A stretch of DNA of 64,000 nt. Origin: Flexistipes sinusarabici DSM 4947 (GTDB lineage Bacteria; Chrysiogenota; Deferribacteres; Deferribacterales; Flexistipitaceae). The notes beneath the pieces were generated by a model, which saw nothing but the letters and a program-made list of their open reading frames with translations, did not search any database and was not told the DNA's origin. The DNA lies in NCBI RefSeq assembly GCF_000218625.1, contig NC_015672.1:1647451-1711450 (forward strand), written 5' to 3'. Numbering within the stretch: position 1 is the first letter of the stretch; the number at the start of each line of letters is the position of its first letter. The position numbers and the translations under genes were made by a program. This document shows positions 14,362-64,000 of this stretch, in pieces.

Positions 14362-16979
14362 TGACGGGAAAAGAAATCAGACAAAAATTTTTGGATTTTT
14401 TTGAACAAAAAGATCATACAATAGTAAAATCTTCATCGCTGGTTCCGGAAAATGACCCCACACTTTTGTTTACAAATGCCGGAATGAATCAGTTCAAGGA
14501 TACCTTTCTGGGTGTGGAAAAACGGAACTATTCCAGAGCCGCAACTTGCCAGAAGGTAGTCAGAGCAGGCGGCAAACACAATGACCTTGAGAATGTTGGC
14601 AGGACAGCACGACATCATACGTTTTTTGAAATGCTCGGAAATTTTTCTTTCGGGGATTATTTCAAAAGAGGTGTTATAAATTATGCATGGGAATTTCTCA
14701 CGGAGGTCTTGGGGCTTGATAAGGAAAAATTATACATCTCCGTTTTTCATAAGGATGATGAAGCTTTTAACATATGGAAAAACGAAATCGGCATACCGGA
14801 GGAAAGAATTTCAAAACTGGGGGAAAAAGAAAATTTCTGGTCTATGGGTGACACTGGGCCATGCGGTCCGTGTTCTGAAATTCATATAGACCAGGGTCCC
14901 AAAATTGGATGCGGCAGGAGTGACTGCGATCCTGAATGTGACTGCGACAGATTTTTGGAACTTTGGAATCTCGTATTTATGCAGTACGACAGAGATGCTG
15001 AAGGAACCCTGCATCCACTGCCCAAACCCAGCATAGACACGGGAATGGGGTTGGAGCGTATAGCAGCAGTTGTCCAGAATGTCACAAGTAACTTTGATAC
15101 AGACCTCATCAGACCAATCATTGAAGAAACGTCATCCATTGCCGGGATCAGGTATAAAGATAATGAAAAATTTGATATCAGTCTCCGTGTGATAGCTGAT
15201 CACGCCAGAGCAACAACATTCTTAATTTCAGACGGCGTTATACCTGCAAATGAGGGGCGCGGATATGTGCTGAAAAGGATTATGCGCAGAGCCATGAGGC
15301 ACGGGAGACTTATCGGTATTAAAGAGAACTTTTTCTATAAAATTTGTGAATTTGTAGTGGATTTTATGAGTGATCATTACCTGGAGCTTGTTGACAAGAA
15401 AAATTATATTTCCAAAATTGTTAAACAGGAAGAAAGCAGGTTTAAAAATACATTGACAACCGGTCTGAAAATTACCGAGTCACTTATAGAAAAATACAAA
15501 TATGACAAATATATACCCGGAAAAGAAATATTCACCCTTTATGATACATACGGATTCCCCGTGGATCTGTTAGAGGATATTGCGGAAGAAAACGGATTCA
15601 GCTTAGATATGGAAGGTTTTAAAAAGGAAATGTCCGCTCAGCAGGAAAAAGCTAAAAGAGCCTGGAGCGGCAGCGGAGATACCGCAGTTGATGAAAGATT
15701 TAAAAAACTTGCATCAAAATTCAGAACTGAATTTGACGGATATGACAAACTTTCCTTAGAAAGTGAGATTCTCGGAATCATTAGCAAAGGAAATAACACA
15801 GAAGAGGCAAAACAGGGAGATAAAATCGAAATAATTCTGTCAAAAACTCCCTTTTACCCGGAAGGTGGAGGAGAGACAGGTGATAAAGGTTATATAAAAA
15901 GTGACAATGCCGTAGCGGAAGTAAAAGATACAAAAAAATATGCCGAATCACTAATAGTTCATGAGGCTGAAATATTAAACGGTACTTTAAAGGTGGGGGA
16001 GATTATAACAGCAGAAGTGAACAGTGAATTTCGTAAAGCGGTTGAAAAAAACCATACTTCCACTCACTTGATTCACAAAGCTCTCAGAGAGGTATTGGGT
16101 GACCACGTGAGGCAGTCAGGTTCACTTGTGGATTCGGAAAAGCTGCGTTTTGATTTCACACACTTTTCCCCATTAAGCAGGGAAGAAATTGTAGAGATAG
16201 AAAATATAGTAAATAAAAAGATTCAGGAGAACCTCCCTGTAAAAAAGGAGATTACGGATATAGATTCTGCAATACAAAAAGGTGCAATGGCAATATTTGG
16301 AGAAAAATACGGTGATACAGTCCGTGTGGTTTCTGTAAATGATTTTTCCAAAGAGCTGTGCGGAGGCTGCCATGTCAATTATACGGGTGAAATCGGCCTG
16401 TTCAAAATTACAACGGAAACCAGTGTGGCATCAGGGATAAGAAGAATAGAGGCACTCACAGGTATCAAAGCATTTGAAGAGCTGTCCAAAATTTACAGAA
16501 TGGCGGAAGATACGGCCGGACTATTAAAAACATCCATTTCAAAATTGTTTGAAAGTGTTGATTCTCAGAATAAAAAGGTAAAAGAACTGGAAAAGCGGCT
16601 GAAAGAACTGAAAGACAAACTTAATTCACGGCAAACGGAGAAACTGCTCGAAAATGTGAAAGAGAAAAACGGAATAAAAATTCTCACATTAAGAGCTGAT
16701 GAACAGGATATAAATTCCCTGCGAAACATGACCGATGTTGCAAAAGCCAAACTAAAATCCGGTATTGTCGTTATAGGCTCAGAAAACAAAGGCAAAGCAG
16801 TTTTCATATGCGGCGTCACAAAAGATCTTACTGACAGATACAAGGCAGGCGATATTGTAAAGAAAGTGGCAGCCGTCTGCGGAGGCAGCGGAGGCGGAAA
16901 GGCTGAAATGGCACAGGCCGGAGCAAAAGACATAAATAAGATTGATGAAGCCCTCGAAACGGTTTATAATATATTATAA
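14361..16979 (+). CDS. alaS: Alanine--tRNA ligase
   Basis: Class II aaRS motifs. C-terminal editing-domain zinc motif HTSTHLIH...CGGCHV. Start at MTGKEIRQKFLDFF. Confidence 0.95.
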   Translation: MTGKEIRQKFLDFFEQKDHTIVKSSSLVPENDPTLLFTNAGMNQFKDTFLGVEKRNYSRAATCQKVVRAGGKHNDLENVGRTARHHTFFEMLGNFSFGDYFKRGVINYAWEFLTEVLGLDKEKLYISVFHKDDEAFNIWKNEIGIPEERISKLGEKENFWSMGDTGPCGPCSEIHIDQGPKIGCGRSDCDPECDCDRFLELWNLVFMQYDRDAEGTLHPLPKPSIDTGMGLERIAAVVQNVTSNFDTDLIRPIIEETSSIAGIRYKDNEKFDISLRVIADHARATTFLISDGVIPANEGRGYVLKRIMRRAMRHGRLIGIKENFFYKICEFVVDFMSDHYLELVDKKNYISKIVKQEESRFKNTLTTGLKITESLIEKYKYDKYIPGKEIFTLYDTYGFPVDLLEDIAEENGFSLDMEGFKKEMSAQQEKAKRAWSGSGDTAVDERFKKLASKFRTEFDGYDKLSLESEILGIISKGNNTEEAKQGDKIEIILSKTPFYPEGGGETGDKGYIKSDNAVAEVKDTKKYAESLIVHEAEILNGTLKVGEIITAEVNSEFRKAVEKNHTSTHLIHKALREVLGDHVRQSGSLVDSEKLRFDFTHFSPLSREEIVEIENIVNKKIQENLPVKKEITDIDSAIQKGAMAIFGEKYGDTVRVVSVNDFSKELCGGCHVNYTGEIGLFKITTETSVASGIRRIEALTGIKAFEELSKIYRMAEDTAGLLKTSISKLFESVDSQNKKVKELEKRLKELKDKLNSRQTEKLLENVKEKNGIKILTLRADEQDINSLRNMTDVAKAKLKSGIVVIGSENKGKAVFICGVTKDLTDRYKAGDIVKKVAAVCGGSGGGKAEMAQAGAKDINKIDEALETVYNIL

Positions 16980-47510: not shown

Positions 47511-48425
47511 TCATCTTTCTTCCATTTTTTCCAGACTGTCCTGAAGATATTTTTTTAGTGTTTGCTTATAATAATCGGGATTTTTTATTTTAATAAACGG
47601 CGCCCAACGCAGTATTTGCAACAGAAAATCCATTTCGTTATAAACTTCAAAAGTTACTTCGATACTGCTTTCGCCTTCACCTGTTATTTTTTGGTTCGTC
47701 AAACAGGATTTCCTTTTAAAATAATCAGCTACTGAATTATCAATTTCCATAGTAATTTTATCTTTGTCATGCTCATTAAACCAAATATTATTAGCATCTT
47801 TTATTATTTCGTCTATATCATCCCTATGACTAAACACATTACCTGTGGTTTTTATTTCTGAGATTTGATCCACAACAAATTTCTTCAGGCAATCTTCATG
47901 ATCACCCAGTAAGTACCAAAAGCCGTCAGATAAGATTATTCTATATGGTTTTACCGTATAATTACGGCTATATCTTTCATAAAAGAAAGTGATTTCGTTT
48001 TGTTCCTTTATTGCAATTTCTAAATCATTTAATACTGAGGATATGTTTTCAAAACCAATCATATTTTCTTTAACAAAATCGTATGAGAAAGTGATACCGT
48101 TTAGGTGAAATATTTTACTTTTTAATTTATCCAGGTATTTCGCGGAATCATTGTTAACATCCCTTTTCAAAAAATCAAACAAAGCACCTACGTAAGACAA
48201 CTCAGTTTGTGATAAAAAAGTTCCTTCAAAAGAATAACTATCTATCAAAGAATAGCTGTTGTCTTTTTCATTATGTACTACTCCAGGAATAATGGACAAT
48301 TCGAGTAAATATCTTTGAGCCGTTCTGATGCTTACTCCAAGTTCTTCAGAAACTTTTTTTGAATCAATCTTCTTGTTTTCATTTAAAAGTTTTATCAAAC
48401 CCAGTGCTGTATATAGTTTATTCAT
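47511..48425 (-). CDS. wHTH-WYL domain transcriptional regulator (BrxR/CapW-like)
   Basis: N-terminal HTH_11 (VSIRTAQRYLLEL). Central WYL motif (FWYLLGDHED). Length 304 aa. Confidence 0.7.
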   Translation of the reverse strand: MNKLYTALGLIKLLNENKKIDSKKVSEELGVSIRTAQRYLLELSIIPGVVHNEKDNSYSLIDSYSFEGTFLSQTELSYVGALFDFLKRDVNNDSAKYLDKLKSKIFHLNGITFSYDFVKENMIGFENISSVLNDLEIAIKEQNEITFFYERYSRNYTVKPYRIILSDGFWYLLGDHEDCLKKFVVDQISEIKTTGNVFSHRDDIDEIIKDANNIWFNEHDKDKITMEIDNSVADYFKRKSCLTNQKITGEGESSIEVTFEVYNEMDFLLQILRWAPFIKIKNPDYYKQTLKKYLQDSLEKMEER

Positions 48426-51174: not shown

Positions 51175-52578
51175 ATGAATACACCAGACTTTCTGAACAG
51201 AGAAAAAGAGCTGAATTTTCTACATTCACAATTTGCAAGAAAAGAAGCATCGTTTATCGTTATTTACGGAAGAAGAAGGGTTGGCAAAACATCCCTTATC
51301 AAGGAGTTTATAAAGGATAAGTCTTCACTGTTTTTTATGGCGGACAAACAGTCAGAAAAAGGCATTCTTGACAGATTTGCAAAAACAGCATCAACCTTTT
51401 TAGAAGATGAGTTTTTAGAAAAATTGACATTTAATTCCTGGGAAGATTTTTTTGGTTATATAACTCAGAAACTCGATGAATCAAAAAAATATGTTCTTGT
51501 AATAGATGAGTTTCAATACCTGCCGGATATAAACCATGCTTTTCCTTCTATATTACAAAGGATATGGGATGAAAAGCTAAAAGACAAAAATATAATGCTG
51601 ATATTGTGCGGATCTTTGATAAACATGATGTATTCTACTACATTAAGCTACCAGAGTCCGCTTTATGGCAGAAGGACCGGGCAGATAAAGTTAGATCCAA
51701 TCTCATTTGATTATTGTCATAATTTTTTCCCCAACATTGATGAGCGAAAACTTATTGAATATTATTCAGTAACAGGAGGAATTCCGAAATACATGGAGAT
51801 GTTTGATGCAACCAATGATATTCTTTATGATATAAAAACAAATGTTCTCTCAAAAAACAGTTATCTTTACAACGAACCACGGTTTATCTTAAACGAAGAG
51901 GTTACTGAAACAGCAACATATTTTTCTATACTTAAAGCGATAGCAGCAGGGGAACATAAAATTGGAAAAATTGCATCCATAGTGGGCGTTAAAACGAATG
52001 TGCTGGCAAAATATTTTAATGTACTGGCAGATTTGCAGATAATAGAAAGACAGGTGCCTGTAACAGAAGAAAATCCTGAAAAAAGCAAAAAGGGCTTATA
52101 TTTTATCAAAGATAATTTTTTCAGATTCTGGTTCCGCTACATATTCCCCTACCAAAGTTTTTTAGAAATTGAAAGAGATGACGTAGTGTTAAAAGAGATA
52201 CAAAAAAGTTTCAATATTTTTGTTAGTTTTGTTTATGAAAACTTGTGTCTGCAAAAGATTCCCGATCTTACCCAGAATGGTGTTATTAATTTCAAAATTG
52301 AAAAATGGGGTAGATGGTGGAGCAAGGATGAGGAAATTGATATAGTAGCTACAAGCAAAAAAGATAAAAATATCTTGTTTGGTGAATGCAAATGGAGCGA
52401 CACACCCATAGGAGTGAGCGTTTATGCTGATTTAAAGGCTAAAGCAAAAAATGTAAAATGGCACACAGATGAAAGGAACGAGTATTATATTCTTTTTTCA
52501 AAGTCAGGCTTTACAGAAGATTTAATGGATATAAATGAAAAAACAAGCAGTCTCATCTTAATCGACAGCATCGTATAA
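51175..52578 (+). CDS. AAA+ ATPase (archaeal-ATPase/DUF234 family) with C-terminal PD-(D/E)XK-like region
   Basis: Walker A GRRRVGKTS. Walker B VLVIDEFQYL. C-terminal EEIDIVA...GECKW. Confidence 0.7.
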   Translation: MNTPDFLNREKELNFLHSQFARKEASFIVIYGRRRVGKTSLIKEFIKDKSSLFFMADKQSEKGILDRFAKTASTFLEDEFLEKLTFNSWEDFFGYITQKLDESKKYVLVIDEFQYLPDINHAFPSILQRIWDEKLKDKNIMLILCGSLINMMYSTTLSYQSPLYGRRTGQIKLDPISFDYCHNFFPNIDERKLIEYYSVTGGIPKYMEMFDATNDILYDIKTNVLSKNSYLYNEPRFILNEEVTETATYFSILKAIAAGEHKIGKIASIVGVKTNVLAKYFNVLADLQIIERQVPVTEENPEKSKKGLYFIKDNFFRFWFRYIFPYQSFLEIERDDVVLKEIQKSFNIFVSFVYENLCLQKIPDLTQNGVINFKIEKWGRWWSKDEEIDIVATSKKDKNILFGECKWSDTPIGVSVYADLKAKAKNVKWHTDERNEYYILFSKSGFTEDLMDINEKTSSLILIDSIV

Positions 52579-52779: not shown

Positions 52780-55700
52780 ATGAAATCAGTCTTAAAGTCT
52801 TTGGAAAACATCTGTTCTAAAAATATTACAAAGCGAAAAATACTTGTGATGCCGAGTTACACAGAAGGCTTAAGCCTATTGAATGCTCTTGCTCTTAACA
52901 ATGTAAATATCGCCAATATAAAAGTAGAAACACCCTTAAGTCTCGCAAAAGATATTTCAAAAATGAGCCTATATAAATCCGGCAAAGATTTTTTAGACAG
53001 ATCAAGTGCAAGATATGTTGTTTTAAACTTATTTAACCAGCTTCTGACAGAGAATAAGCTTAAATATTTTCAACAATTATCACCATCTGTAGGGGTAATC
53101 AGTGAATTGGAAAACGTTTTATATGAACTCAGAATTACAGATTACACCCATATAAATTTTCCTGTAAATTCTTTTATAGATCCTGAAAAAGAACACGACA
53201 TTAAAACATTACTGCAAAAATACGAAAACTATCTTGAAAATAATAACCGCATCGATGAGCCAGGTTTGTATAAACATAGCATACAAATGTTGCAAAAAGA
53301 CAGCTTTCATAAAGACAAGCTTTTTCTGATACCGGCTAATCTGGAACTGCCTTTACTCTCCAAAAGTTTTATCTCAATGCTTACGAAAAATAATCATGAA
53401 ATTATAAAATTCGCACAATTAAAAAGCTTAAATGTCCCTGAAAATTATTACTCAAATAATCCATATTCGGATACAATAGATAACTGCTTCAGCTGGCTTT
53501 ATGAGCTTAATAATTCCGAAAATTTGGACAAAAACCCCGGTTTTGAAATATACAGAGCATACGGCGAGTCAAATGAAGCCAAAAAAGTGATAAGAGTACT
53601 CAAGAGAGATGCAATAAATCTTGATGATGCTGTTATTTATACGACCTCTTCCCAACTGTATAATCAAATTCTCTATGATTTATCATGCACATACAATATT
53701 CCCATGACTTTTGAGGAAGGGATAAGTGTATCAAATACTTCTCCCGGTAAGCTTTTATTATCAGTTCTGGAATGGATTTCAGAGAAATACAGTGTTCCAA
53801 AATTTTGTACAATGTCCACAGGGGGATTTTTCAAATTTAGCAACAATGAAATCTCACCATTAAAAATAAGTAAAATACTTAAAGAAAGCAAGATTGCCTG
53901 GGGCAAAAAACGGTATAAAAAAATATTGGAGAATGAGTTAACGAACACTACAAATGATTATAAAATAGAAATTTTAAATGTCGTTCTTTCAGAGCTTAAT
54001 AGTATTTTTGACGAAATACCCGATACAGAAAACACTTCATCTATATCTTTATCTGAGTTTTCGAAAGGCTTAGTAAACATACTAAACAAACATACCCGAA
54101 TAAGAAATGAGACAGACGCATCAGCTTTAACCACACTTACCGAAAATCTTTCAAACTTGGCAGATTATTCAACACAGGAATTTCAGGAAAAAGAAATAAT
54201 AAAGATGCTTAAAAAACTTGTATATGGCATTAATATTAATGCCTCCTCAGCCAAGCCCGGTCATATTCATGTCACTAATTTTCAAAACGGAATCTGGCAT
54301 AACAGAAAGCACAATTTCATTTTAGGTCTTGATGCTGAAAAATTCCCCGGTAAAGGTGGTGAAAGCCCGTTTTTGCTTGATATGGAAAAGGAGCGTATTG
54401 GAAAAATTCAGACAAGTATTCAAAGGAAAAGCAGAAATATTTATAAAATGACAGAACTTCTTGCTAACACAAATGGCAAAATATATGCAATGTTCACCAA
54501 TTACGATACTGAGGCGGCGAGGCTCCAATCCCCATCCTCTTTACTACTGCAAATTTACAGACTACAGGAAAAGCTTGATAAAAGCACACCGGATAAAGAG
54601 CACATCGAAAGCTATCTGCCTTTTAAAAATAGTGAGAAAGAGATTCTTGATGAGACAGAATTATGGTTGCACAAAGCTTTTTATTCCGGTGGTATCAAAA
54701 ACAATGAAGAAATATTCCCTTCTGTTTACCCTGTATTTAATAAAGGTCTTTTTGCATTAAGTGAAAGGCAAAGCAGCATAAATGAGTATAACGGCTGTGA
54801 GTTAAACATAAGTGATGAAATTGTTAATAAATTACTTTATGAAAAGACCTTCTCAAACTCAAAACTTGAAACAATGGGCAGTTGTCCCCTCCGATTTTTC
54901 TTTCAACATATACTCTATCTAAAACCTCTTGAGGAATATGAGTATGACCCGTGGAGGTGGCTGGATCCTTTGGAAAGAGGAACGTTATTACACAGGATTT
55001 TTGAGCTGTTTTATAAAGAATTAATAAATAAAAAAGAAATGCCGGAATTAGATAAGCATATGGGTTTGTTAGAAAATATAGCAAAAACGGAAACTGAAGA
55101 ATTAAAAGATTTATTACAGCCTCCAAGTGAAACTGTATATGAAAGTGAATTTAATGAAATTTTAGATTCCTGCCGTATATTTCTCCAGAAAGAATCCACC
55201 AAATTATCCAAAGAAGGTCATCCTCTATATTTAGAGCTTTATTTCGGTAATTACCCCGAAAGTGAAGGTTCCAGTTTCCCGACGGCTGTGTTTACATTGC
55301 CATCAGGCAGAAAAATACAGCTTAGCGGTAGAATCGACAGGATTGATCAGTTAAATAACGGAAGCTATAAAATAATTGACTATAAGACAGGAAGTACCAG
55401 AGATTACAGCAGTAATGAATATTTCAAAAAGGGTAAACAGCTTCAACACGCTTTATATTCTTTGGCTTTCGAAAAGCTCATGGGGAATAAATACAAAATT
55501 TCACAATCCGGATACTATTTTCCAACAACCAAAGGCGAAGGCTCAGAATACATGTATCCACCAAGTGACGGAAAACATAAAAGAGAAGAAGTATTGGAAA
55601 TCGTTGACATTCTTCTTGATAATATTGAGAACCGTTTCTTCCCGCCCGTTAAGTATGATAACAAAAATGATTCATGTAGATTCTGCGACTATAAAGAGAT

Positions 55701-55797
55701 ATGCGATAGAGAAAAAAATGATTCATTAACAAAGATGCTGGAATATGAGGAAAACAAATACCTTCAAAATTACAGGAGGATTGAAAGCTATGAGTGA
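52780..55797 (+). CDS. addB: AddB/RexB-like helicase-nuclease subunit (no Walker A; RecB nuclease plus Fe-S cysteines)
   Basis: C-terminal PD-(D/E)XK (GRIDRIDQL...YKIIDYKTGS). Cysteines GSCPLRF...CRFCDYKEIC. Confidence 0.65.
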   Translation: MKSVLKSLENICSKNITKRKILVMPSYTEGLSLLNALALNNVNIANIKVETPLSLAKDISKMSLYKSGKDFLDRSSARYVVLNLFNQLLTENKLKYFQQLSPSVGVISELENVLYELRITDYTHINFPVNSFIDPEKEHDIKTLLQKYENYLENNNRIDEPGLYKHSIQMLQKDSFHKDKLFLIPANLELPLLSKSFISMLTKNNHEIIKFAQLKSLNVPENYYSNNPYSDTIDNCFSWLYELNNSENLDKNPGFEIYRAYGESNEAKKVIRVLKRDAINLDDAVIYTTSSQLYNQILYDLSCTYNIPMTFEEGISVSNTSPGKLLLSVLEWISEKYSVPKFCTMSTGGFFKFSNNEISPLKISKILKESKIAWGKKRYKKILENELTNTTNDYKIEILNVVLSELNSIFDEIPDTENTSSISLSEFSKGLVNILNKHTRIRNETDASALTTLTENLSNLADYSTQEFQEKEIIKMLKKLVYGININASSAKPGHIHVTNFQNGIWHNRKHNFILGLDAEKFPGKGGESPFLLDMEKERIGKIQTSIQRKSRNIYKMTELLANTNGKIYAMFTNYDTEAARLQSPSSLLLQIYRLQEKLDKSTPDKEHIESYLPFKNSEKEILDETELWLHKAFYSGGIKNNEEIFPSVYPVFNKGLFALSERQSSINEYNGCELNISDEIVNKLLYEKTFSNSKLETMGSCPLRFFFQHILYLKPLEEYEYDPWRWLDPLERGTLLHRIFELFYKELINKKEMPELDKHMGLLENIAKTETEELKDLLQPPSETVYESEFNEILDSCRIFLQKESTKLSKEGHPLYLELYFGNYPESEGSSFPTAVFTLPSGRKIQLSGRIDRIDQLNNGSYKIIDYKTGSTRDYSSNEYFKKGKQLQHALYSLAFEKLMGNKYKISQSGYYFPTTKGEGSEYMYPPSDGKHKREEVLEIVDILLDNIENRFFPPVKYDNKNDSCRFCDYKEICDREKNDSLTKMLEYEENKYLQNYRRIESYE

Positions 55798-58700
55798 TCA
55801 AGCTCTAAAGGACAGTCACGCAAGAAAGAAAATAATAAATGATCTTGATACAAATTTTTTAGTGGAAGCCGGTGCAGGTTCCGGTAAGACTTCAAGCCTT
55901 GTTAAAAGGATTACGTCTTTAATCACTAACGGAAAAAATAAAATCTCAGAAATAGCCGCTATTACTTTTACCAAGAAGGCTGCTTCTGAGCTTATGGAAA
56001 GACTTTTAAATGAATTGGAAGACCGACATAATTCAGAAACAGACCCTACCATAAAAGAGAACCTATATGATGCGATAAACAACTTTGACCAGTGTTTTAC
56101 CGGTACAATACACTCATTTTGCTCCGGCATATTGAGGGAAAGACCTGTGGAGGCTGGAGTTGACCCGGATTTTGATGAAATAGATGATTCAGACGAGTTT
56201 GGTTTGATTACTGAAGTCTGGAACGAGTTTATCAAGTCCACAAGAGCTGAGAATCCTGATATGCTAAAATTGACGGAGAAAATTGGGGTATCGCCTGAAG
56301 AGCTTCAGGATAGTTTTGTTATGCTGAATAAATATCCGGAAATCAAAATACACGCTGAAAAATCTGAAAAACCGGATTTAAAGCCTGCGGTTAAAAAAGT
56401 ATTAGAAATCTGTAAAGAGGCTTCAAAATACATTCCTGATGAAGAACCGGATAAAGGGTACGATGCTTTTCAGAAAAATGTGCAATCAACGCTCAGACTT
56501 TTAGAATATAGAAATCTCTATGAAGATAAGTATGCAATAGAAATATTAACAAAATTTGAGAAAACACCCAAAATAACACAAAACAGATGGCTTGATAAAA
56601 AAACTGCAAAAAATTTCCAGGATGTAATACTGCCGGATTTGGTTGAAAACACTGTTTATCCGGTATTAAGAAAACACAGGGAACATATTTATACTTATTT
56701 TATAGATTTTTTTCAAGATGCACTAACATATTATGAAAACAAGAGGAATCAGGAATCAATTCTGAATTATAACGATCTTCTGACACTTACCTCAAAGATG
56801 CTAAGAAATAATTCAAAAGTAAGAGAATATTTTCAAAATAAATACAAGACAACTCTGGTGGATGAGTTCCAGGATACCGATCCCATACAAGCTGAAATTA
56901 TCATGTATTTGACCGGAGAAGATTTAAAGGAAACCGATTGGAGTAAACTGAGACCCAAAAAAGGCTCACTTTTTGTAGTTGGTGATCCAAAACAGTCAAT
57001 ATACAGATTCAGAAGAGCTGATATAGATATTTATAACTTTGTAAAAGAAATTATTTCACAAACAGGCGGTGAAATACTCGAATTAACTTCCAATTTCAGA
57101 TCATTAAACAGCATAGCTGATTATCTCAATCCTGTTTTTGAAGAAAGGTTTCCTGAGAGTGGTGACAGGTATCAGGCACCTATGGCAAAGATCCGTGCAA
57201 TCCGTGAAAACAATTATGAACACGGTGTAAAAAAGATATTAGTCCAATGTGACTCCAGAAAAAAAGAAGATGTTGTTGAAATTGACGCTGAAAATATAGC
57301 AAGATATATAAAATATGCTGTAGACGGTGGAATAAAATTAGCCCGAAATGAGGAAGAAAAATCTAAAGGACTTAATGAGAAGCCTGTATATTCAGATTTT
57401 TTGATAATAACCAAACATAAAGATTTGCTGGAACAATATGCAAACACACTGGAAAAATACGGAATTCCTTCAACTGTAACCGGTGATGATTTTTTCAGCC
57501 AGTCAGAAGAGATAAACCATATTTATAAGCTCCTTAAATTTCTCAGTAAACCGGATGATGAGATACTCTTAGTATCAGTACTAAGAGGTATGTTTTTCGG
57601 TTTGAGTGATAATGACTTGTACCAGTTTAAAGCATCAAATGGGTATCTCAATATCTTTAGCAGTATACCGGAATCGCTGGATGAAAACATCAAAAATCTT
57701 TTTAATAACTGTTTTTCAACACTTCGCAAATATAAAAAGATTATCAATGAGTTGCCACCATCGTCAGCTTTGGAAACAATCTTTCAGGACTTAGGGATTT
57801 TACCCTATACATCACTGAAGAACTTATCAAAAAGCCGGGCTGCAAACATTTATTTTTTAATAGAACAAGTCAAACAGAAGGAAACTACCGAATTTTACTC
57901 ATTTGGAAATGTAGTCAACCATATAGGCAGATTGTTAGAGTCAAAATTTGAACAGAGAAACAGCCTCGAAGTTGAAAGCAATTGCGTGAGAATAATGAAT
58001 TTGCATAAAGCAAAAGGTTTGGAAGCACCTGTTGTTTTTCTTGCCCACCCTCACAAAAATACTAAACACGACCCAACTCAGCATATTAACAGACGAGAGG
58101 GCGAACCTATAGGTTATTTTGCACTAACTAAAAAGAAAGGGATACACCATAAAAAAATTTTTGCTCAACCTAAAAATTGGGAAGAATTCCAGGAAGAGGA
58201 ACAAAAATTTTTAGATGCTGAATTTGAAAGACTTGTCTATGTGGCAGCAACGAGGGCTAAAAATCTCCTTATAATAAGCTGTAAAGAAAAAGGCAATGGG
58301 AGTCAGAACCCCTGGCTGAGCCTGCTGGGTAATTTAAAAGATGACGATGTAATAGATGTACCTGATGTCAGTATAGAGCATGATTCAGGTGTAAATGAAT
58401 TATCCGTAAAAGATATAAATGATAAAAAAGCTGAGATCAGTCATTGGAGGCATTCTGTGTCAGAAGAGAATTATTCAAACATGACCCCCACAGAAGTAAA
58501 AGATTTGGAAAAAATATTTGCCGGTGAAAGGCTCGAAGGCGGCGGTCAGGACTGGGGTACCGCTGTGCATAATTTTTTAGAGTTTGCTGTAATGACCAAA
58601 GATACCGGATATGAGGATTTGGATACTTATATAAAATTTACTTTTGAAGAGCTGGATATAAGCTCTGACAGAACAGAGGAAGCTAAAAAAATAATAGAAG

Positions 58701-59038
58701 ATTTTAAACAAACAGACTTATTTAACCGAATAAAAAATGCCGAACAAGTGGAGACGGAAGCCCCCATTTCTATGAAAATTAATCCGGAATCCGAAATCAT
58801 GAATTTGTTTAATACTAAAACGAGTAACAAGCCTATAATCCTGGCAGGCGTAATTGACCTTGTGTTTAAAGAAAAGGACGGCTGGGTAATTATAGATTAC
58901 AAAACCGACAGAGTTAATTCCGAAGAAGAATATGAAAAACTCAGGCAGGCCTATTTAAATCAAGTGGAAATTTATGCAAAAGCATGGGAAGAGATAACCG
59001 GTGAAAAAGTAAAAGAGAAAAATATATACTTTGTATGA
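55790..59038 (+). CDS. addA: AddA/RexA-like UvrD-family helicase with C-terminal RecB nuclease
   Basis: Walker A AGAGSGKTS. Motif II LVDEFQDTD. Motif III GDPKQSIYRFRRAD. Motif VI VYVAATRAK. Nuclease GVIDLVF...IIDYKTD. Overlaps the addB stop by 8 nt. Confidence 0.8.
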   Translation: MSDQALKDSHARKKIINDLDTNFLVEAGAGSGKTSSLVKRITSLITNGKNKISEIAAITFTKKAASELMERLLNELEDRHNSETDPTIKENLYDAINNFDQCFTGTIHSFCSGILRERPVEAGVDPDFDEIDDSDEFGLITEVWNEFIKSTRAENPDMLKLTEKIGVSPEELQDSFVMLNKYPEIKIHAEKSEKPDLKPAVKKVLEICKEASKYIPDEEPDKGYDAFQKNVQSTLRLLEYRNLYEDKYAIEILTKFEKTPKITQNRWLDKKTAKNFQDVILPDLVENTVYPVLRKHREHIYTYFIDFFQDALTYYENKRNQESILNYNDLLTLTSKMLRNNSKVREYFQNKYKTTLVDEFQDTDPIQAEIIMYLTGEDLKETDWSKLRPKKGSLFVVGDPKQSIYRFRRADIDIYNFVKEIISQTGGEILELTSNFRSLNSIADYLNPVFEERFPESGDRYQAPMAKIRAIRENNYEHGVKKILVQCDSRKKEDVVEIDAENIARYIKYAVDGGIKLARNEEEKSKGLNEKPVYSDFLIITKHKDLLEQYANTLEKYGIPSTVTGDDFFSQSEEINHIYKLLKFLSKPDDEILLVSVLRGMFFGLSDNDLYQFKASNGYLNIFSSIPESLDENIKNLFNNCFSTLRKYKKIINELPPSSALETIFQDLGILPYTSLKNLSKSRAANIYFLIEQVKQKETTEFYSFGNVVNHIGRLLESKFEQRNSLEVESNCVRIMNLHKAKGLEAPVVFLAHPHKNTKHDPTQHINRREGEPIGYFALTKKKGIHHKKIFAQPKNWEEFQEEEQKFLDAEFERLVYVAATRAKNLLIISCKEKGNGSQNPWLSLLGNLKDDDVIDVPDVSIEHDSGVNELSVKDINDKKAEISHWRHSVSEENYSNMTPTEVKDLEKIFAGERLEGGGQDWGTAVHNFLEFAVMTKDTGYEDLDTYIKFTFEELDISSDRTEEAKKIIEDFKQTDLFNRIKNAEQVETEAPISMKINPESEIMNLFNTKTSNKPIILAGVIDLVFKEKDGWVIIDYKTDRVNSEEEYEKLRQAYLNQVEIYAKAWEEITGEKVKEKNIYFV

Positions 59039-59067: not shown

Positions 59068-59163
59068 CAATCCTCTTTAATAATAATTTTCACTTGAAGA
59101 TTGCATAATAAGCTTAAAAAGTATATATTGAAGTATATACTTTTCAAAAAGGAGTTATTAATA

Positions 59164-59391
59164 ATGGATACTGCAAAAATATTTGAAAACGGAAAAAGTC
59201 AGGCTGTCAGGTTACCCAAAAAATACAGGTTTGACAGCGATGATGTGTTTATAAAAAAAATTGATGACATCGTTGTATTAATTCCTAAAGATAAAGTCTG
59301 GCAAATTTTTAGTTCATCTTTGGACAAATTTTCGGAAGATGTAGATTTTCAAAAAGACAATTCTATACCACAGGAAAGAGAAGAAATATAA
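59164..59391 (+). CDS. vapB: VapB-type antitoxin (AbrB/SpoVT-like)
   Basis: MDTAKIFENGKSQAVRLPKKYRF. Stop overlaps the PIN toxin start. Confidence 0.65.
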   Translation: MDTAKIFENGKSQAVRLPKKYRFDSDDVFIKKIDDIVVLIPKDKVWQIFSSSLDKFSEDVDFQKDNSIPQEREEI

Positions 59392-59793
59392 ATGTCTTAC
59401 CTTTTTGATACAAACATATGTATTTACATCATAAAAAATAAGTACAAACAAATTGCAAAAAAAATGCAGGAAGCTGGATTAGAAAAAATTTGTATCTCTG
59501 CTATTACCGTTGCAGAGTTAGAATACGGTATATCAAAAAGCTCCAAAAAGGACGAAAACAGGATTGCGTTGCTGGAATTCCTTATTCCGTTTACAGTATT
59601 AAATTTTGATCAAAATGATGCCAGAAAATACGGTCAAATCAGGTACAATTTGCAAAAAGCAGGCACACCTATTGGTAACATGGATTTGCTTATTGGATCC
59701 CAGGCTTTGGCAAGAGATATGACTCTGATAACAAATAACGAAAAAGAATTCAGCCGGATACAAGGGTTAAAAATAGAAAACTGGATTAAATAG
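59392..59793 (+). CDS. vapC: VapC PIN-domain toxin
   Basis: PIN motifs LFDTNICIY, ...TNNEKEF. Confidence 0.8.
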   Translation: MSYLFDTNICIYIIKNKYKQIAKKMQEAGLEKICISAITVAELEYGISKSSKKDENRIALLEFLIPFTVLNFDQNDARKYGQIRYNLQKAGTPIGNMDLLIGSQALARDMTLITNNEKEFSRIQGLKIENWIK

Positions 59794-60271: not shown

Positions 60272-61819
60272 TAGTTAACCCTGAAAAAGGTATATTTTCT
60301 TAAAATTTGCCAATATTTTTGTTTATTAAATGTAAACTATACATATATTTTGGCATACTTTTTATCCAGAAACACTTCGTTTGCAAAATTTGCTAATTTT
60401 TTTGCAATATTATCCATAAATTTTTTGAGAAAAAATAAAAGAAAGGCCAGTATCAGCCTTAGGTTATGACCACTTGCCGCCAAAATTGCATTAGCTTTAT
60501 CTCCCTCTTTGCCTTTCAGATAATTTCTGTCCATCCGGTTATCTCGCTTAGTATGACCTATCGTCGCCTCAACACAACTTCGTCTTTTCAATAACCTCTT
60601 AAAATTAACTTTGAATTTCTTCATACTGCGTGGAACTACATGGACTTTTGCATCCCCTCTATAATTGTGCTTCCTGTAACCCAAATCTACCAATATCGTA
60701 TCTATTGTACCGTTACTACCCAAAAGGGTTTTTGCTTCACATAAATTCTCTTCTAATGTATGACCGTCATAAGGATTGCCGTGAAATGATTTGCAACTCA
60801 GTATAAAATTCTTCTTCAATGTACCAACAAAACCTACTTTGTTACCAAACTCATACCTCTTATGGCTCTTGCCCTTGCTAATGCACTCAACCTCTGGACT
60901 GTGAAGACTGTAAAGTTTGTTCTTGCTCTTTTTACTCCGATTCCACAAACTCTCGTAAAATAACTTTAGCTGTTGAAACTCATCCGAATTCCTCAATTCC
61001 TCAGGTAAAACCCTTTCTATAGAACGATATAATTTGCCCATCTTTGTCTTCATCTTTTTTACTGCCTTACCCGCTCTCTTGTACTGTTTCGCATGAACAT
61101 AGCCACTATATTTCATCAATAGCTTCTTGCCGGAATATTCATGTGTCTCCTTTAACCTTATCTCATGCTTCTTTGAAAATTTCACAAGATATTTGATCAT
61201 TGTATAAAAAAGTTTTATGTCCGTTGGAAACGTTATGTTCTTTTCCTGCACCGTCGTATCTGCAGCTACTTTCTTTACGTCATTCTTATTAAGATAACCA
61301 CTACGAAAAGCAGTGTTAATTGTCTCCTCTAAAAACTTCAACAAATCTTCTTCTTTTAAACGATTCCGAAATCTTGTCATGCTGGTTGGATTTATCGGCA
61401 CCTTTGTCTGGAATACCTTTTCTCCAGTGAAGTACTGCCAGTAAGGGTTTTCTTTCCAGCCATGCACCACGTCTTCATCACTCAAATTGTACGTGTATTT
61501 CAAATAATGAAACCCAACCATCATACGCATTGGAATTCCTGGGCGACCATCGTTACGGTGATAAAGACTGCCAAATTCTTTCTCAAAATATTCCCAGTCT
61601 ATTTTATCTGCTAATTGTATTAATGGATGTTTCATATCTATAATGTTAACAAGCAGTGGTTCTAAAAGCTCTTGTGTCGTCGAATCTTGCTTCTTAGGAC
61701 GCATATAATCCCCCGGGTTTTTTGCTTATTCCTTTACTTTTCTGTGGGATTACTTTAGCATATTTCCTTGGTTAACTCAAGTATTATCAAATAGTTATCT
61801 AGTTTCTCAGGGCTAACTA
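60272..61819 (-). mobile_element. IS5-family (IS1182-like) insertion sequence
   Basis: Terminal inverted repeats tagttaaccctgaaaaa (60272-60288) and tttctcagggctaacta (61803-61819). Single DDE transposase gene. Confidence 0.65.
60337..61704 (-). CDS. IS5-family DDE transposase
   Basis: InsH-N-like region (GRPGIPMRMMVGFHYLKYTYNLSDEDVV). DDE region (DLGY...NLRLIL). Confidence 0.8.
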   Translation of the reverse strand: MRPKKQDSTTQELLEPLLVNIIDMKHPLIQLADKIDWEYFEKEFGSLYHRNDGRPGIPMRMMVGFHYLKYTYNLSDEDVVHGWKENPYWQYFTGEKVFQTKVPINPTSMTRFRNRLKEEDLLKFLEETINTAFRSGYLNKNDVKKVAADTTVQEKNITFPTDIKLFYTMIKYLVKFSKKHEIRLKETHEYSGKKLLMKYSGYVHAKQYKRAGKAVKKMKTKMGKLYRSIERVLPEELRNSDEFQQLKLFYESLWNRSKKSKNKLYSLHSPEVECISKGKSHKRYEFGNKVGFVGTLKKNFILSCKSFHGNPYDGHTLEENLCEAKTLLGSNGTIDTILVDLGYRKHNYRGDAKVHVVPRSMKKFKVNFKRLLKRRSCVEATIGHTKRDNRMDRNYLKGKEGDKANAILAASGHNLRLILAFLLFFLKKFMDNIAKKLANFANEVFLDKKYAKIYV

Positions 61820-61885: not shown

Positions 61886-62121
61886 GTCGTAATCCCTTCA
61901 AAACATTTGCGCAATATCTCATCGCAAATGTTTCTGTTCAGAGCTTGCTGGAAATCAGGTCATTAATTCCAATAGTATATCTTAACTTAACAAATGGATT
62001 AGAAGACTTTTGTCGTAATCCCTTCAAATCAGGTCATTAATTCCAATTCGGGTGCTGCGTATTATGCAACTGCTCCCACGGAAGGGGTCGTAATCCCTTC
62101 TAATCAGGTCAATTCCGAAAA
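61886..62121 (+). CRISPR. CRISPR mini-array A: interrupted first repeat, one canonical repeat, degenerate terminal repeat
   Basis: 36-nt repeat GTCGTAATCCCTTC(T/A)A(A/G)TCAGGTCAT(GG/TA/GA)ATTCCAAT. Spacers of 38-39 nt. Terminal repeat degenerate (gtcgtaatcccttctaatcaggtcaattccgaaaat). Confidence 0.8.
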
Positions 62122-62318
62122 TAGGTTTTAGGTTTTAGGTTTTGGGTTTTAGGGAAAGCAGGGTTGCAAATCTTTCGAGCAGGGAATTGGCTTCGCCAAC
62201 GTATCTCGTCTCACGCAAAAAACAACTAAAGCTGAAAACAAATAATCTTTGAAATCTACGTGAACATTAAAAACGTTGAACATTGAACGTGGAACGCTGG
62301 CACGACAGTGCCAGATCT

Positions 62319-62774
62319 GTTGTAATCCCTTCAAAACCCAGCCATCATATAATCGGCTGGGTTTCTGGTCCGAGCTTGCTGGAAATCAGGTCATGGATTC
62401 CAATGGTATAGATAATAAAAAAATTGTCCATGTATTTGATATAGTCGTAATCCCTTCTAATCAGGTCATTAATTCCAATAATAAACTATCCAAGAACTTT
62501 TGGAATTGAGATAGAAGTCGTAATCCCTTCAAGTCAGGTCATGAATTCCAATTGGTTCAGTACAAAAATAGCCATAAAAAAGCCATTAAAAGTCGTAATC
62601 CCTTCAAGTCAGGTCATGAATTCCAATATCCGACCAAATTCCATGGTCGGAGCTCTCTTCAGCTATGTCGTAATCCCTTCAAGTCAGGTCATGAATTCCA
62701 ATAAATTTCCGGACTGAGGCAATTAGGATGGCAAAAAAAGTCGTAATCCCTTCTAATCAGGTCAATTCCGAAAA
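62319..62774 (+). CRISPR. CRISPR mini-array B: leader copy 1 (62110-62318), interrupted first repeat, 4 repeats, degenerate terminal repeat
   Basis: Repeats at 62319-62404 (86 nt, interrupted), 62444, 62517, 62592, 62667, 62740 (degenerate). Spacers of 37-39 nt. Confidence 0.85.
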
Positions 62775-62971
62775 TAGGTTTTAGGTTTTAGGTTTTGGGT
62801 TTTAGGGAAAGCAGGGTTGCAAATCTTTCGAGCAGGGAATTGGCTTCGCCAACGTATCTCGTCTCACGCAAAAAACAACTAAAGCTGAAAACAAATAATC
62901 TTTGAAATCTACGTGAACATTAAAAACGTTGAACATTGAACGTGGAACGCTGGCACGACAGTGCCAGATCT

Positions 62972-63433
62972 GTTGTAATCCCTTCAAAACCCAGCCATCA
63001 TATAATCGGCTGGGTTTCTGGTCCGAGCTTGCTGGAAATCAGGTCATGGATTCCAATGTTGAAGCACTCGGCGCAGTTCTATCTTTTGAGCAGAGTCGTA
63101 ATCCCTTCTAATCAGGTCATGGATTCCAATAGAGAGATTTCTCCATTTCCTAAATTTAATACAGTTGATGTCGTAATCCCTTCTAATCAGGTCATGGATT
63201 CCAATCTTCCGGAGGGTTTTAGATTTAAGTACCTCAAAGTCGAGGTGTCGTAATCCCTTCTAATCAGGTCATGGATTCCAATATATGTCGCCCAGCTCAT
63301 GGGCGGCAGGTTGCCGGAAGGGTCGTAATCCCTTCTAATCAGGTCATGGATTCCAATTACACAACTAAAACAGATACTTTGATTATTGTCTTTTCCTAGT
63401 CGTAATCCCTTCTAATCAGGTCAATTCCGAAAA
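62972..63433 (+). CRISPR. CRISPR mini-array C: leader copy 2, interrupted first repeat, 4 repeats, degenerate terminal repeat
   Basis: Repeats at 62972-63057 (interrupted), 63095, 63170, 63247, 63322, 63399 (degenerate). Spacers of 37-41 nt. Confidence 0.85.
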
Positions 63434-63630
63434 TAGGTTTTAGGTTTTAGGTTTTGGGTTTTAGGGAAAGCAGGGTTGCAAATCTTTCGAGCAGGGAATT
63501 GGCTTCGCCAACGTATCTCGTCTCACGCAAAAAACAACTAAAGCTGAAAACAAATAATCTTTGAAATCTACGTGAACATTAAAAACGTTGAACATTGAAC
63601 GTGGAACGCTGGCACGACAGTGCCAGATCT

Positions 63631-64000
63631 GTTGTAATCCCTTCAAAACCCAGCCATCATATAATCGGCTGGGTTTCTGGTCCGAGCTTGCTGGAAATCA
63701 GGTCATGGATTCCAATCTGAAGCGAATCAATTATATAAAAATTCTTTCTCTTCTGTCGTAATCCCTTCTAATCAGGTCATGGATTCCAATAGTGATGCGG
63801 GGTGGGTACGTCGGTTTGCATATCGAAAGTCGTAATCCCTTCTAATCAGGTCATGGATTCCAATACATCAAGAACAGAAAGCGCTGTTTGAAATGGCAGC
63901 TCGTCGTAATCCCTTCTAATCAGGTCATGAATTCCAATCAGGTTGCCGGAAGGGGCAACAACCCTTCCGGAGGGTTTGTCGTAATCCCTTCAAGTCAGGT
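63631..64000 (+). CRISPR. CRISPR mini-array D: leader copy 3, interrupted first repeat, at least 4 repeats; truncated by window end
   Basis: Repeats at 63631-63716 (interrupted), 63755, 63829, 63903, 63978 (truncated). Confidence 0.85.

What the first reader, a model, noticed from the sequence alone, without database searches (positions are those of the whole stretch)
61886..64000. Tandem CRISPR mini-arrays, three of them with near-identical ~210-bp leader copies
The leader-like unit (attccgaaaataggttttaggttttaggttttgggttttaggg ... ctggcacgacagtgccagatctgtt) occurs three times (about 62110, 62763, 63422). Each copy follows a degenerate terminal repeat of the previous array and precedes a fresh array of 4-5 spacers. 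The IS5 element lies immediately upstream of array A, which lacks this leader. This gives multiple active-looking leaders in series rather than one long array. No cas gene is present in the 20 kb upstream.
Basis: seen in the sequence. Interest (0 to 1): 0.65.

Follow-up and report, generated by a model that had tools for sequence, protein, structure and literature searches.

The report
CRISPR array punctuated by repeated end-modules
A Flexistipes CRISPR array is divided into short blocks by three identical 318-bp units, but these units match the module found at the far (trailer) end of related arrays rather than a leader, and they carry a conserved hairpin built into a repeat that may stop transcription or block junk guide RNAs.

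Summary
There are three exactly identical 318-bp units (62087-62404, 62740-63057, 63399-63716). They separate blocks of 2, 5, 5 and at least 4 unique spacers that use one 36-nt repeat. The window comes from Flexistipes sinusarabici DSM 4947, whose genome paper lists 0 CRISPR repeats.

The 'leader' reading is not supported. Related loci place this repeat family downstream of type III csm/cmr-csx20 operons. They are transcribed so that the repeat ends in ...GGGAUUACGAC, which is the window's minus strand. The spacers are antisense to target genes in that orientation.

In relatives, the canonical leader is AT-rich, lies next to csx20 and is unrelated to the unit. The unit's homologue lies at the opposite, trailer end. 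Each unit has three parts:
- a 'split' repeat carrying a ~50-nt insertion;
- 199 nt of trailer-like sequence;
- a 5'-degenerate repeat.

The split repeat is the conserved terminal repeat of this family. Its hairpin exists in three fully compensated stem versions, always with an 11-nt loop.

Best reading: this is one type III array interrupted by copies of its own end-module, spread or kept identical by recombination. The module probably terminates transcription and/or suppresses the extraneous crRNA from the last repeat. That function is inferred, not shown.

The parts
60272..61819 (-). IS element (IS5-like); transposase ORF 60337-61704. It lies 66 bp beyond the trailer end of the CRISPR locus.
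   Evidence: Pfam DUF772, DDE_Tnp_1_6 and DDE_Tnp_1. Imperfect inverted ends TAGTTAACCCTGAAAAA / TTTCTCAGGGCTAACTA were read. The same-strain contig L004 ends at this IS.
61886..61973 (-). Terminal split repeat S(v1) of the whole locus. It is a repeat with a 52-nt insertion; hairpin CATTTGCG / 11-nt loop / CGCAAATG. This is the same version as in L001, L006 and L126, and nearly the same as in L138.
61974..62086 (-). Mini-array A: 2 spacers and one repeat (62012-62047). That repeat is identical to the repeat of L001, L006 and L126.
62087..62404 (-). Unit T1 (318 bp). R' is a 5'-degenerate repeat (62087-62119). X is 199 nt of trailer-like sequence (62120-62318) containing the heptad GG tract (62122-62153), small hairpin HP3 (62187-62199) and hairpin HP2 CTGGCAC/GTGCCAG (62297-62314). 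S(v2) is the split repeat (62319-62404), with hairpin CCCAGCC / 11-nt loop / GGCTGGG at 62337-62361 and handle AUUACAAC.
62405..62739 (-). Mini-array B: 5 spacers and 4 repeats. The repeat variant switches between 62444 and 62517.
62740..63057 (-). Unit T2, 100% identical to T1
63058..63398 (-). Mini-array C: 5 spacers and 4 identical consensus repeats. Spacers 63206-63246 and 63283-63321 overlap spacer 63939-63976 on a single target.
63399..63716 (-). Unit T3, 100% identical to T1
63717..64000 (-). Mini-array D: at least 4 spacers; cut by the window end. The promoter-proximal side of the locus lies beyond 64000.

Best explanation
This is one type III-associated CRISPR locus of Flexistipes sinusarabici DSM 4947. 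It is transcribed from right to left (window minus strand), and its true leader should lie beyond 64000.

The 318-bp unit is not a leader. It is a copy of the array's end-module and has three parts:
(i) a 'split' repeat S. This is a complete repeat with a ~50-nt insertion placed just upstream of the 8-nt crRNA handle. The insertion carries a conserved single-stranded stretch and a hairpin followed by UUUU.
(ii) 199 nt (X) homologous to the sequence that follows arrays in related genomes. X starts with a second hairpin (HP2) that covers the first ~25 nt of any guide made from it.
(iii) a repeat R' that is degenerate at its 5' end.

S is the ancestral terminal repeat of this repeat family. Three copies of S-X-R' sit in spacer slots inside the array. 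They were most likely placed or kept identical by recombination between repeat and unit sequences, not by each acting as an acquisition site.

Functionally, the module most likely ends pre-crRNA transcription and/or prevents the last repeat plus trailer from yielding an 'extraneous' crRNA. If so, internal copies would damp expression of the older mini-arrays to their left.

Shown here: anatomy, orientation, homology to trailers, lack of relation to the canonical leader, and structural conservation of the hairpin. Inferred: the recombination origin and the terminator / ecrRNA-suppressor function.
For: Orientation:
- Arrays with this repeat lie downstream of, and co-oriented with, csm or cmr operons ending in csx20. 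They read ...GGGATTACGAC in L001, L126, L138 and L139, which has cas1-cas2.
- In L098 the degenerate last repeat is on the 3' side in this orientation.
- Spacer strand bias and Shine-Dalgarno+ATG-containing spacers agree.

Trailer homology:
- The order S, HP2, a conserved 36-nt block (89% identity, E=2e-5), a decayed truncated S, a heptad tract and a partial repeat is colinear between the window unit and the csx20-distal ends of L001, L006 and L126.
- In L006 and L126 the X units are tandem with no spacers between them.

Not a leader:
- There is no similarity to the canonical leader, and GC is 41% against 28%.
- A genuine leader duplication in L138 copies the canonical leader at 95-97% identity.
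- No promoter-like site was found in the unit.

S as a conserved terminal element:
- It ends both arrays of L138 (Csx20 only 46% identical), the arrays of L001 and L006, and the left end of the window locus.
- All 9 distinct S sequences have a perfect 7-8 bp stem and an 11-nt loop.
- The three stem versions differ at 3-5 of 7 positions, and every change is compensated. The chance of such a stem in a random 25-mer is about 5e-5.
- Hairpin free energy is -13.5 to -18.2 kcal/mol.

ecrRNA frame:
- In class 1 systems the extraneous crRNA comes from the last repeat. The known countermeasures are terminators, guide-sequestering hairpins and repeat mutations (PMC12080349, PMC13187072).
- S (hairpin plus UUUU before the handle), HP2 (guide nt ~3-25) and the handle G-to-A change in v2 correspond to these three.

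Recombination:
- The units are bounded exactly by repeat sequence.
- Repeat variants switch by 1-3 substitutions at once within blocks B and D.
- A run of six identical-variant repeats spans unit T3.
Against: - No transcript data exist, so termination, Cas6 processing and ecrRNA suppression are all untested.
- As a Rho-independent terminator, S is atypical. Its loop is 11 nt and only 4 U follow on the crRNA strand, whereas good terminators in this window have 3-7-nt loops and 6 or more U. The U-rich tail is actually better on the opposite strand (UUUCUGUU).
- An invariant 11-nt loop and a conserved 21-nt single-stranded flank suggest a specific binding partner rather than a plain terminator.
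- In L126 the last repeat before X is a normal repeat, and two S copies sit mid-array with 23 spacers after them. This is awkward if S stops transcription efficiently.
- No spacer is shared between blocks or with relatives. Neither the polarity of spacer addition nor the route by which units came to lie between unique spacers could be reconstructed.
- Spacers from one target occur in both blocks C and D, which would also fit parallel acquisition.
- The window's own spacers show only a weak strand bias (p=0.09).
- The right flank, including the canonical leader and any cas genes, could not be retrieved.
Confidence: 0.55

Rival explanations
1. The units are working internal leaders, but in the corrected orientation. 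S ends one mini-array, and X carries a promoter and integration signals for the next mini-array to its left, which starts at R'. The locus would then be a series of independently transcribed and independently growing mini-arrays.
For: - Each mini-array ends with the family's terminal repeat. This resembles the two tandem arrays of L138, where a leader follows the first array.
- Parts of X are conserved between lineages, including a compensated small hairpin: TCGGCGAAGCCGA against TTGGCGAAGCCAA.
- Overlapping spacers from one target occur in both C and D.
- The two complete blocks have the same size, 5 spacers each.
- A TTGCAA hexamer identical to the -35 element of the L138 leader is present in X.
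Against: - There is no -10 element at a usable distance and no promoter-like hit in the unit.
- X is GC-richer than the genome and unrelated to the canonical leader and its conserved junction GGGG(T)GCT|ATTGGAAT.
- The repeats next to R' are normal repeats, not copies of R'. Integration at R' would have duplicated R'.
- In L006 and L126 the same X units are tandem and have collected no spacers.
Confidence: 0.2
2. The array is read on the plus strand. Each ~210-bp unit is a leader upstream of a fresh array, and the truncated repeat before it is the degenerate terminal repeat of the previous array.
For: On the plus strand R' looks like a classic terminal repeat with 3'-end degeneration, as described in PMC8047081. 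The unit is also identical in all three copies.
Against: - All comparative evidence puts transcription on the other strand.
- On the plus strand the supposed leader ends in two terminator-like hairpins immediately before and within the 'first repeat'.
- The supposed first repeat (86 nt) is never copied into the array.
- In relatives the homologous sequence is on the far side of the array from the cas operon and the canonical leader.
Confidence: 0.04
3. Assembly artefact. A single unit, or units that differ slightly, was expanded or homogenised during the 2011 454/Illumina finishing. Alternatively, array variants from a mixed culture were joined in tandem.
For: - The genome was finished from 454 Titanium, paired-end and Illumina data with Dupfinisher and PCR (PMC3236037).
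- A 318-bp exact repeat is close to the 454 read length.
- Perfect identity of three copies could be consensus smoothing.
- The short-read contig of the same strain (L004) breaks at the IS.
Against: - Every unit has unique spacers on both sides, so at least three distinct left and three distinct right junctions must exist in the reads.
- Independent metagenome assemblies show the same building blocks multiplied: tandem X units and internal split repeats in L006 and in L126/L127.
Confidence: 0.07
4. The unit, or the ~50-nt insertion inside S, is a small non-autonomous mobile element that targets CRISPR repeats.
For: - The insertion in S is flanked by a duplicated TTT.
- The two repeat-derived ends of the unit overlap by 10 nt (TGACCTGATT), which looks like a target duplication.
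- Copies are identical and sit only within repeats.
- Internal S copies occur in L006 and L126.
Against: - There are no terminal inverted repeats.
- There are no copies elsewhere in the 64 kb window.
- The insertion is ancient and fixed at array ends across distant lineages. Its stem is replaced by compensatory changes while the flanks stay constant, which is the signature of a selected RNA or DNA structure rather than a transposing element.
- The apparent duplications are equally well explained by recombination between repeat halves.
Confidence: 0.08

Closest known systems
Degenerate terminal repeat and conserved trailer ('anchor') end of CRISPR arrays (reviewed in PMC8047081)
   Same: S sits at the leader-distal end of arrays in L138, L006, L001 and the window. 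It is the one repeat that differs from the rest, and it is conserved along with the array end.
   Different: Known terminal repeats carry a few substitutions or a 3' truncation. Here a full repeat carries a structured ~50-nt insertion with a covarying hairpin. In addition, the end-module recurs inside the array, three times in the window.
Mechanisms that suppress extraneous crRNAs: leader-repeat hairpin in II-A and type VI; upstream terminator, guide-sequestering hairpin and extra-repeat mutations in II-C (PMC12080349, PMC13187072)
   Same: The element sits at the 'extra' repeat, which for class 1 is the last repeat. It combines a terminator-like hairpin, a hairpin over the would-be guide (HP2) and a handle mutation.
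   Different: Those cases are class 2 and act at the first repeat or upstream of the array. Nothing comparable has been described for type III. Here the hairpin is inserted inside the repeat itself. Function is untested.
Duplicated leaders and extra arrays, e.g. P. aeruginosa CR3 with a CR2-like leader (PMC13142298) and the second array of L138
   Same: Several arrays use the same repeat within one genome or locus, with distinct spacer sets.
   Different: In those cases the copied sequence is the canonical leader, placed upstream of the array. Here the copied sequence is unrelated to the canonical leader and corresponds to the trailer.
Spacer-repeat block duplication and deletion by recombination or slippage between repeats (PMC8047081)
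   Same: S-X-R' occupies a spacer slot and is bounded exactly by repeat sequence, so the same processes could move or homogenise it.
   Different: The duplicated 'spacer' is 199 nt of non-spacer sequence, and its neighbouring spacers were not co-duplicated.

Membership tests
CRISPR array | Constant-length direct repeats separated by unique spacers of similar length | tested here: met
   36-nt repeat in 12 copies with at most 3 mismatches, 0 expected. There are 16 unique spacers of 37-41 nt.
CRISPR array | Association with cas genes | tested here: inconclusive
   No cas genes were found at 37-60 kb of the window, and the right flank is not available. The same repeat family lies next to csm/cmr-csx20 operons in L001, L126 and L138. 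The only csx20 of DSM 4947 found is Flexsi_1337, about 255 genes away.
Type III-associated array (crRNA with 8-nt 5' handle) | Repeat 3' end of the ATTxxGAC type, co-oriented downstream of the effector operon | tested here: met
   ...GGGATTACGAC is co-oriented with csm/cmr genes in L001, L126, L138 and L139. The resemblance to handles such as AUUGCGAC is from memory.
Type III-associated array (crRNA with 8-nt 5' handle) | Spacers complementary to target transcripts | tested here: met
   Purine bias of spacers: L126 p=2e-5 and L098 p=1e-3; L001+L006 p=2e-5 and window p=0.09. Spacers tile Shine-Dalgarno+ATG gene starts in antisense.
CRISPR leader | Lies upstream of the first repeat in the direction of transcription | tested here: not met
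In relatives its homologue is at the csx20-distal end.
CRISPR leader | AT-rich and carrying a promoter | tested here: not met
   X has 41% GC, against 37% for the genome and 28% for the canonical leader. No promoter-like site was found in the unit on either strand. This was a consensus scan only.
CRISPR leader | Homologous to leaders of other arrays with the same repeat, including the leader-repeat junction | tested here: not met
   There are no matches beyond 7-8-nt words to the L126 leader. The junction motif GGGG(T)GCT|ATTGGAAT shared by L126 and L138 is absent.
CRISPR leader | New spacers are added next to it | not testable with these tools
   No spacers are shared among the window, L001, L006 and L126, and no second strain carrying the units was retrievable.
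Rho-independent terminator | Stable G+C-containing stem-loop | tested here: met
   7-8 bp perfect stems, extended by A-U pairs; free energy -13.5 to -18.2 kcal/mol.
Rho-independent terminator | Short loop and a run of U immediately after the stem | tested here: inconclusive
   The loop is always 11 nt. The tail is UUUUGAAG on the crRNA strand and UUUCUGUU on the other strand. Typical terminators in this window have 3-7-nt loops and longer U runs.
Extraneous-crRNA suppression element | Located at the extra repeat, which for class 1 is the last repeat | tested here: met
   S is the last repeat in both L138 arrays, in L006 and L001, and at the left end of the window locus. The definition comes from PMC13187072.
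Extraneous-crRNA suppression element | Lowers production or activity of the handle+trailer RNA | not testable with these tools
   Requires RNA-seq or reporter assays.
MITE / small insertion element | Terminal inverted repeats, target duplication and copies at unrelated sites | tested here: not met
   There are no terminal inverted repeats, and the motifs occur only in the array. Only a TTT duplication flanks the insertion.
tracrRNA-like anti-repeat | Extended complementarity between the unit and the repeat | tested here: not met
   The duplex predictions are scattered and interrupted, with no continuous anti-repeat. There is no Rfam match.

The most novel reading that the evidence does not exclude
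The split repeat is a dedicated, ancient solution of a type III (class 1) CRISPR family to the extraneous-crRNA / array-end problem. A hairpin module is inserted inside the last repeat, just upstream of the 8-nt handle, and is backed by a guide-masking hairpin in the trailer. Because the module is flanked by repeat sequence, it can be copied into internal repeats. There it would act as a movable stop sign that partitions an array and silences older spacers without deleting them.
Probability: 0.25. Interest if true: 0.65.

Novelty: new variant of a known kind. Interest (0 to 1): 0.5.

Why it matters
How class 1 systems handle the spacer-less last repeat is an open point in the recent work on extraneous crRNAs. 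Those studies found dedicated mechanisms only in class 2 systems.

A terminal repeat with a built-in, structurally conserved hairpin is a concrete and testable candidate. It is shared by lineages whose Csx20 proteins are only 46% identical. Its multiplication inside an array would also be a new way of shaping which spacers are expressed.

There are two practical points. Array finders will split or misorient such loci, and the genome paper for this strain reported no CRISPR at all. A 'leader-like' conserved sequence next to an array is not evidence for a leader unless the orientation is established first.

Tried and rejected
- Rfam, with permissive thresholds on 60-64 kb and gathering thresholds on the whole window: no CRISPR-DR or other family in the region.
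- Protospacer searches: blastn of the whole array against phage genomes gave only chance-level hits. An exact scan of IMG/VR with the core of the tiled spacers gave 0 hits, as did a scan with the split-repeat insertion.
- The genome-contig scan with the repeat found only L001.
- Retrieving the right flank failed. Flexsi_1337 (P0004) and a unit-internal ORF are not on record. Contigs of related strains either lack the array (L002, L003) or break at it (L128-L136).
- The stop-codon / open-frame test for spacer strand was uninformative. Purine bias and Shine-Dalgarno+ATG motifs were used instead.
- A sigma-54 reading of TGGCAC...TGC in HP2 was rejected by hand. The GG-to-GC spacing is off by one in the window and by two in L126, while the palindrome is kept.
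- A promoter in the S loop (TGGTATAAT in some v1 copies) was rejected because it is not conserved in v2, v3 or L138.
- No plausible ORF exists in the unit.
- MAFFT could not put the three hairpin versions in register, so covariation was tallied directly.
Full report
**What is there.** The region from 61886 to the window end is a CRISPR array.
- The 36-nt repeat GTCGTAATCCCTTCTAATCAGGTCATGGATTCCAAT (plus strand) occurs 12 times with at most 3 mismatches. All copies are clustered, and shuffles predict none.
- The 16 spacers are unique and 37-41 nt long.
- Three units are exactly identical over 318 nt and not beyond: 62087-62404, 62740-63057 and 63399-63716.
- Read on the plus strand, each unit has three parts:
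  - a 33-nt repeat with a 3-nt deletion and two substitutions near one end (R');
  - 199 nt of non-repeat sequence (X), containing a 7-nt periodic tract and a 7-bp hairpin CTGGCAC/GTGCCAG (HP2);
  - an 86-nt 'split' repeat (S), in which the two halves of a repeat are separated by about 50 nt that include a strong hairpin.
- The leftmost repeat of the locus (61886-61973) is also a split repeat, with a different hairpin sequence.
- An IS with a DUF772/DDE transposase lies 66 bp to the left.
- No core cas gene was found at 37-60 kb. There is a WYL regulator, a PDC-S27-type ATPase, AddAB-like nucleases and a MazE/PIN pair.

**Source.** Two window proteins are exact matches to Flexistipes sinusarabici DSM 4947: Flexsi_1592 and RecJ AEI15228.
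- The genome paper describes a finished 454/Illumina assembly and lists 'CRISPR repeats 0' (PMC3236037). This array has therefore gone unannotated.
- I could not retrieve sequence to the right of the window.

**Orientation.** Related loci settle this point. The repeat family reads ATTGGAAT...GAAGGGATTACGAC when it lies downstream of, and co-oriented with, a type III operon ending in csx20:
- a III-A csm operon in L001;
- a cas6-cmr operon in L126/L127;
- a csm-Cad1 operon in L138;
- a more distant repeat with the same 3' end follows csm-csx20-cas1-cas2 in L139.

Further support:
- In L098 the degenerate last repeat lies on the 3' side in this orientation.
- Type III crRNAs must pair with transcripts, and host genes here are purine-rich on the sense strand (0.55-0.60). 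In this orientation the spacers are pyrimidine-rich: L126 0.418 (p=2e-5) and L098 0.374 (p=1e-3). L001+L006 give the complement, 0.613 (p=2e-5).
- Several spacers are the reverse complement of a Shine-Dalgarno sequence plus ATG. Three spacers from two metagenomes tile one gene start.
- The window's own 16 spacers lean the same way, but weakly (p=0.09).

The array is therefore transcribed on the window's minus strand, with the handle AUUACGAC. Its promoter-proximal end lies beyond 64000.

**The unit is the trailer module, not the leader.**
- In L126 the sequence between csx20 and the first intact repeat is a 308-nt stretch with 28% GC. It has a plausible promoter just upstream of the repeat.
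- Its repeat-proximal part, including the junction GGGG(T)GCT|ATTGGAAT, is recognisably conserved in L138, whose Csx20 is only 46% identical. The same flank occurs in L001 and L006.
- The window's X shares nothing with this leader beyond 7-8-nt words. It has 41% GC, above the genome's 37%.
- X is instead homologous to what follows the array at the far end in L001, L006 and L126. The hairpin HP2 comes directly after the repeat. A 36-nt block follows (89% identity, E=2e-5), containing a small hairpin with a compensated pair. Then come a decayed 5'-truncated split repeat carrying the same two internal deletions, a tract with GG every 7 nt, and a partial repeat.
- In L006 and L126 these X units are themselves tandemly repeated, at least three times and twice respectively. 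No spacers lie between them.
- When a real leader duplication occurs in this family, as in L138 array 2, the canonical leader is what gets copied. There it is copied together with the 3' end of csx20, at 95-97% identity.
- A consensus scan finds no promoter-like site in the unit on either strand.

**The split repeat.** S is the last repeat of both L138 arrays, of the L006 and L001 arrays, and of the whole window locus at its left end. It also occurs internally: once in L006, twice consecutively in L126, and three times in the window as part of the unit.
- The insertion lies after repeat position ~21. That is upstream of GAAGGG|AUUACGAC, so both repeat halves stay intact.
- The insertion consists of a conserved 21-nt stretch (CCAGCAAGCUCGGAACAGAAA; 71% identical in L138) followed by a hairpin, and it abuts the repeat's own UUU.
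- All nine distinct copies have a perfect 7-8-bp Watson-Crick stem and an 11-nt A/U-rich loop.
- Three stem versions exist: CAUUUGCG, CCCAGCC and CAUCGGG. They differ at 3-5 of 7 positions, and every change is compensated. A random 25-mer of this composition forms such a stem with probability of about 5e-5.
- The hairpins fold at -13.5 to -18.2 kcal/mol on the crRNA strand. In the predicted fold of the whole split repeat, the outer repeat halves still pair.
- This is strong evidence for a selected structure, and it is older than the split between Flexistipes and the L138 lineage.

**What it may do (inference).** Recent work defines the 'extraneous' crRNA made from the one repeat that has no spacer.
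- For class 1 systems this is the last repeat, whose handle would be joined to trailer sequence (PMC13187072).
- In class 2 systems the described countermeasures are a Rho-independent terminator, a hairpin that sequesters the would-be guide, and mutations of the extra repeat (PMC12080349).
- The Flexistipes end-module has a counterpart for each:
  - a hairpin followed by UUUU placed before the handle (S);
  - a hairpin covering roughly nt 3-25 of the would-be guide (HP2);
  - in the window's version, a G-to-A change in the handle (AUUACAAC).

I therefore favour the view that S-X marks and insulates the end of an array.

Several points argue for caution:
- S is not a textbook terminator. Its loop is 11 nt, and only four U follow on the crRNA strand. 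Clear terminators in this window have 3-7-nt loops and longer U runs.
- The U-rich tail is better on the opposite strand, so blocking antisense read-through is an alternative role.
- The constant loop length and the conserved flank suggest a specific partner.
- L126 keeps 23 spacers downstream of two internal S copies.

**How the window's arrangement arose (inference).** S-X-R' sits exactly in a spacer slot and is bounded by repeat sequence.
- Its two repeat-derived ends overlap by 10 nt. Excision and reinsertion, or repair templated by a unit, could therefore place it in any repeat. The 318-bp copies are also the best substrates for gene conversion in the region.
- The locus looks mosaic:
  - The leftmost normal repeat is identical to the repeat of the sister lineage.
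  - Repeat variants switch by up to three substitutions at once within blocks B and D.
  - A run of six identical-variant repeats spans unit T3.
- The repeats next to R' are normal repeats. Integration at R' would have duplicated R' itself, so they argue against acquisition there.
- Spacers in blocks C and D overlap on one target. This fits either a single leader or parallel acquisition.
- With no spacers shared between loci, I cannot reconstruct the history.

**Rivals.**
- An internal-leader function of X in the corrected orientation remains possible (about 0.2).
- An assembly artefact is unlikely. Each unit has unique flanks on both sides, and independent metagenome assemblies show the same modules multiplied. 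The exact copy number and order still rest on a 2011 assembly.
- A repeat-targeting mobile element is not supported. The unit has no inverted ends, no copies elsewhere, and a fixed ancient position.

**Verdict.**
- The finding is an unusual variant of CRISPR array architecture.

Noticed in passing
window 63206-63246, 63283-63321, 63939-63976: Three spacers, two in block C and one in block D, overlap by 14-16 nt and rebuild one ~92-nt target on the same strand. The target carries two hairpins, one of them terminator-like (CCGGAAGGG/CCCTTCCGG followed by GGGTTTT). An exact scan of IMG/VR with the target core found nothing.
   Followed up: partly
L006 (spacers at about 1443 and 1666 in crRNA orientation) and L126 spacer at about 12457: Spacers from two different metagenomes tile the same phage-like gene start: AAGGAGG, 7 nt, then ATG AGA AAA ATA ACA GAT. 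All are antisense to it. This points to repeated or hotspot acquisition from one transcript 5' end.
   Followed up: partly
window 62122-62153, 62775-62806, 63434-63465; L001 about 395-420; L126 about 14580-14610: A tract with GG every 7 nt (5-6 times) on the window plus strand is kept at the same place in the trailer in different lineages, although the filler bases differ (TAGGTTT against GGTAGAG/GGTTAAG). Its function is unknown.
   Followed up: no
whole window / PMC3236037: The F. sinusarabici DSM 4947 genome paper lists 0 CRISPR repeats, although this window alone holds about 20 repeats.
   Followed up: yes
window 47511-48425, 51175-52578, 52780-59038, 59101-59793: The array lies in a defence-island-like setting: a WYL-domain regulator (a PADLOC CRISPR-associated signalling class), a PDC-S27-type ATPase (ATPase_2+DUF234), a two-gene AddB/AddA-like nuclease-helicase pair and a MazE/PIN toxin-antitoxin pair. 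In related strains (L002, L003) a PLD-nuclease plus SNF2-helicase cassette is inserted after the helicase, and no array follows.
   Followed up: partly
L138 8304-8699 and 13514-13896: A true leader duplication: the last ~90 nt of csx20 plus the whole canonical leader are copied at 95-97% identity in front of a second array 5 kb downstream. The csm operon of this locus carries a CARF-adenosine deaminase (Cad1-like) gene.
   Followed up: partly
L126 14294-14470: A 58-aa ORF lies between two copies of the third split-repeat version in the decayed trailer of L126. It was not analysed.
   Followed up: no
L098 1541-1585: In a related repeat family the degenerate terminal repeat itself forms a 7-bp hairpin (AACCGAC/GTCGGTT). 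This may be a different route to a structured last repeat.
   Followed up: no
L131 1510-10405: This contig carries two copies of a partial cmr-csx20 operon as a perfect inverted duplication around a truncated cas10. It is probably a palindromic assembly artefact.
   Followed up: no
window 62444 vs 62517; 63829, 63903, 63977: Repeat variants change by 1-3 substitutions at once inside blocks B and D. This suggests the blocks are mosaics of arrays that carry different repeat variants.
   Followed up: partly
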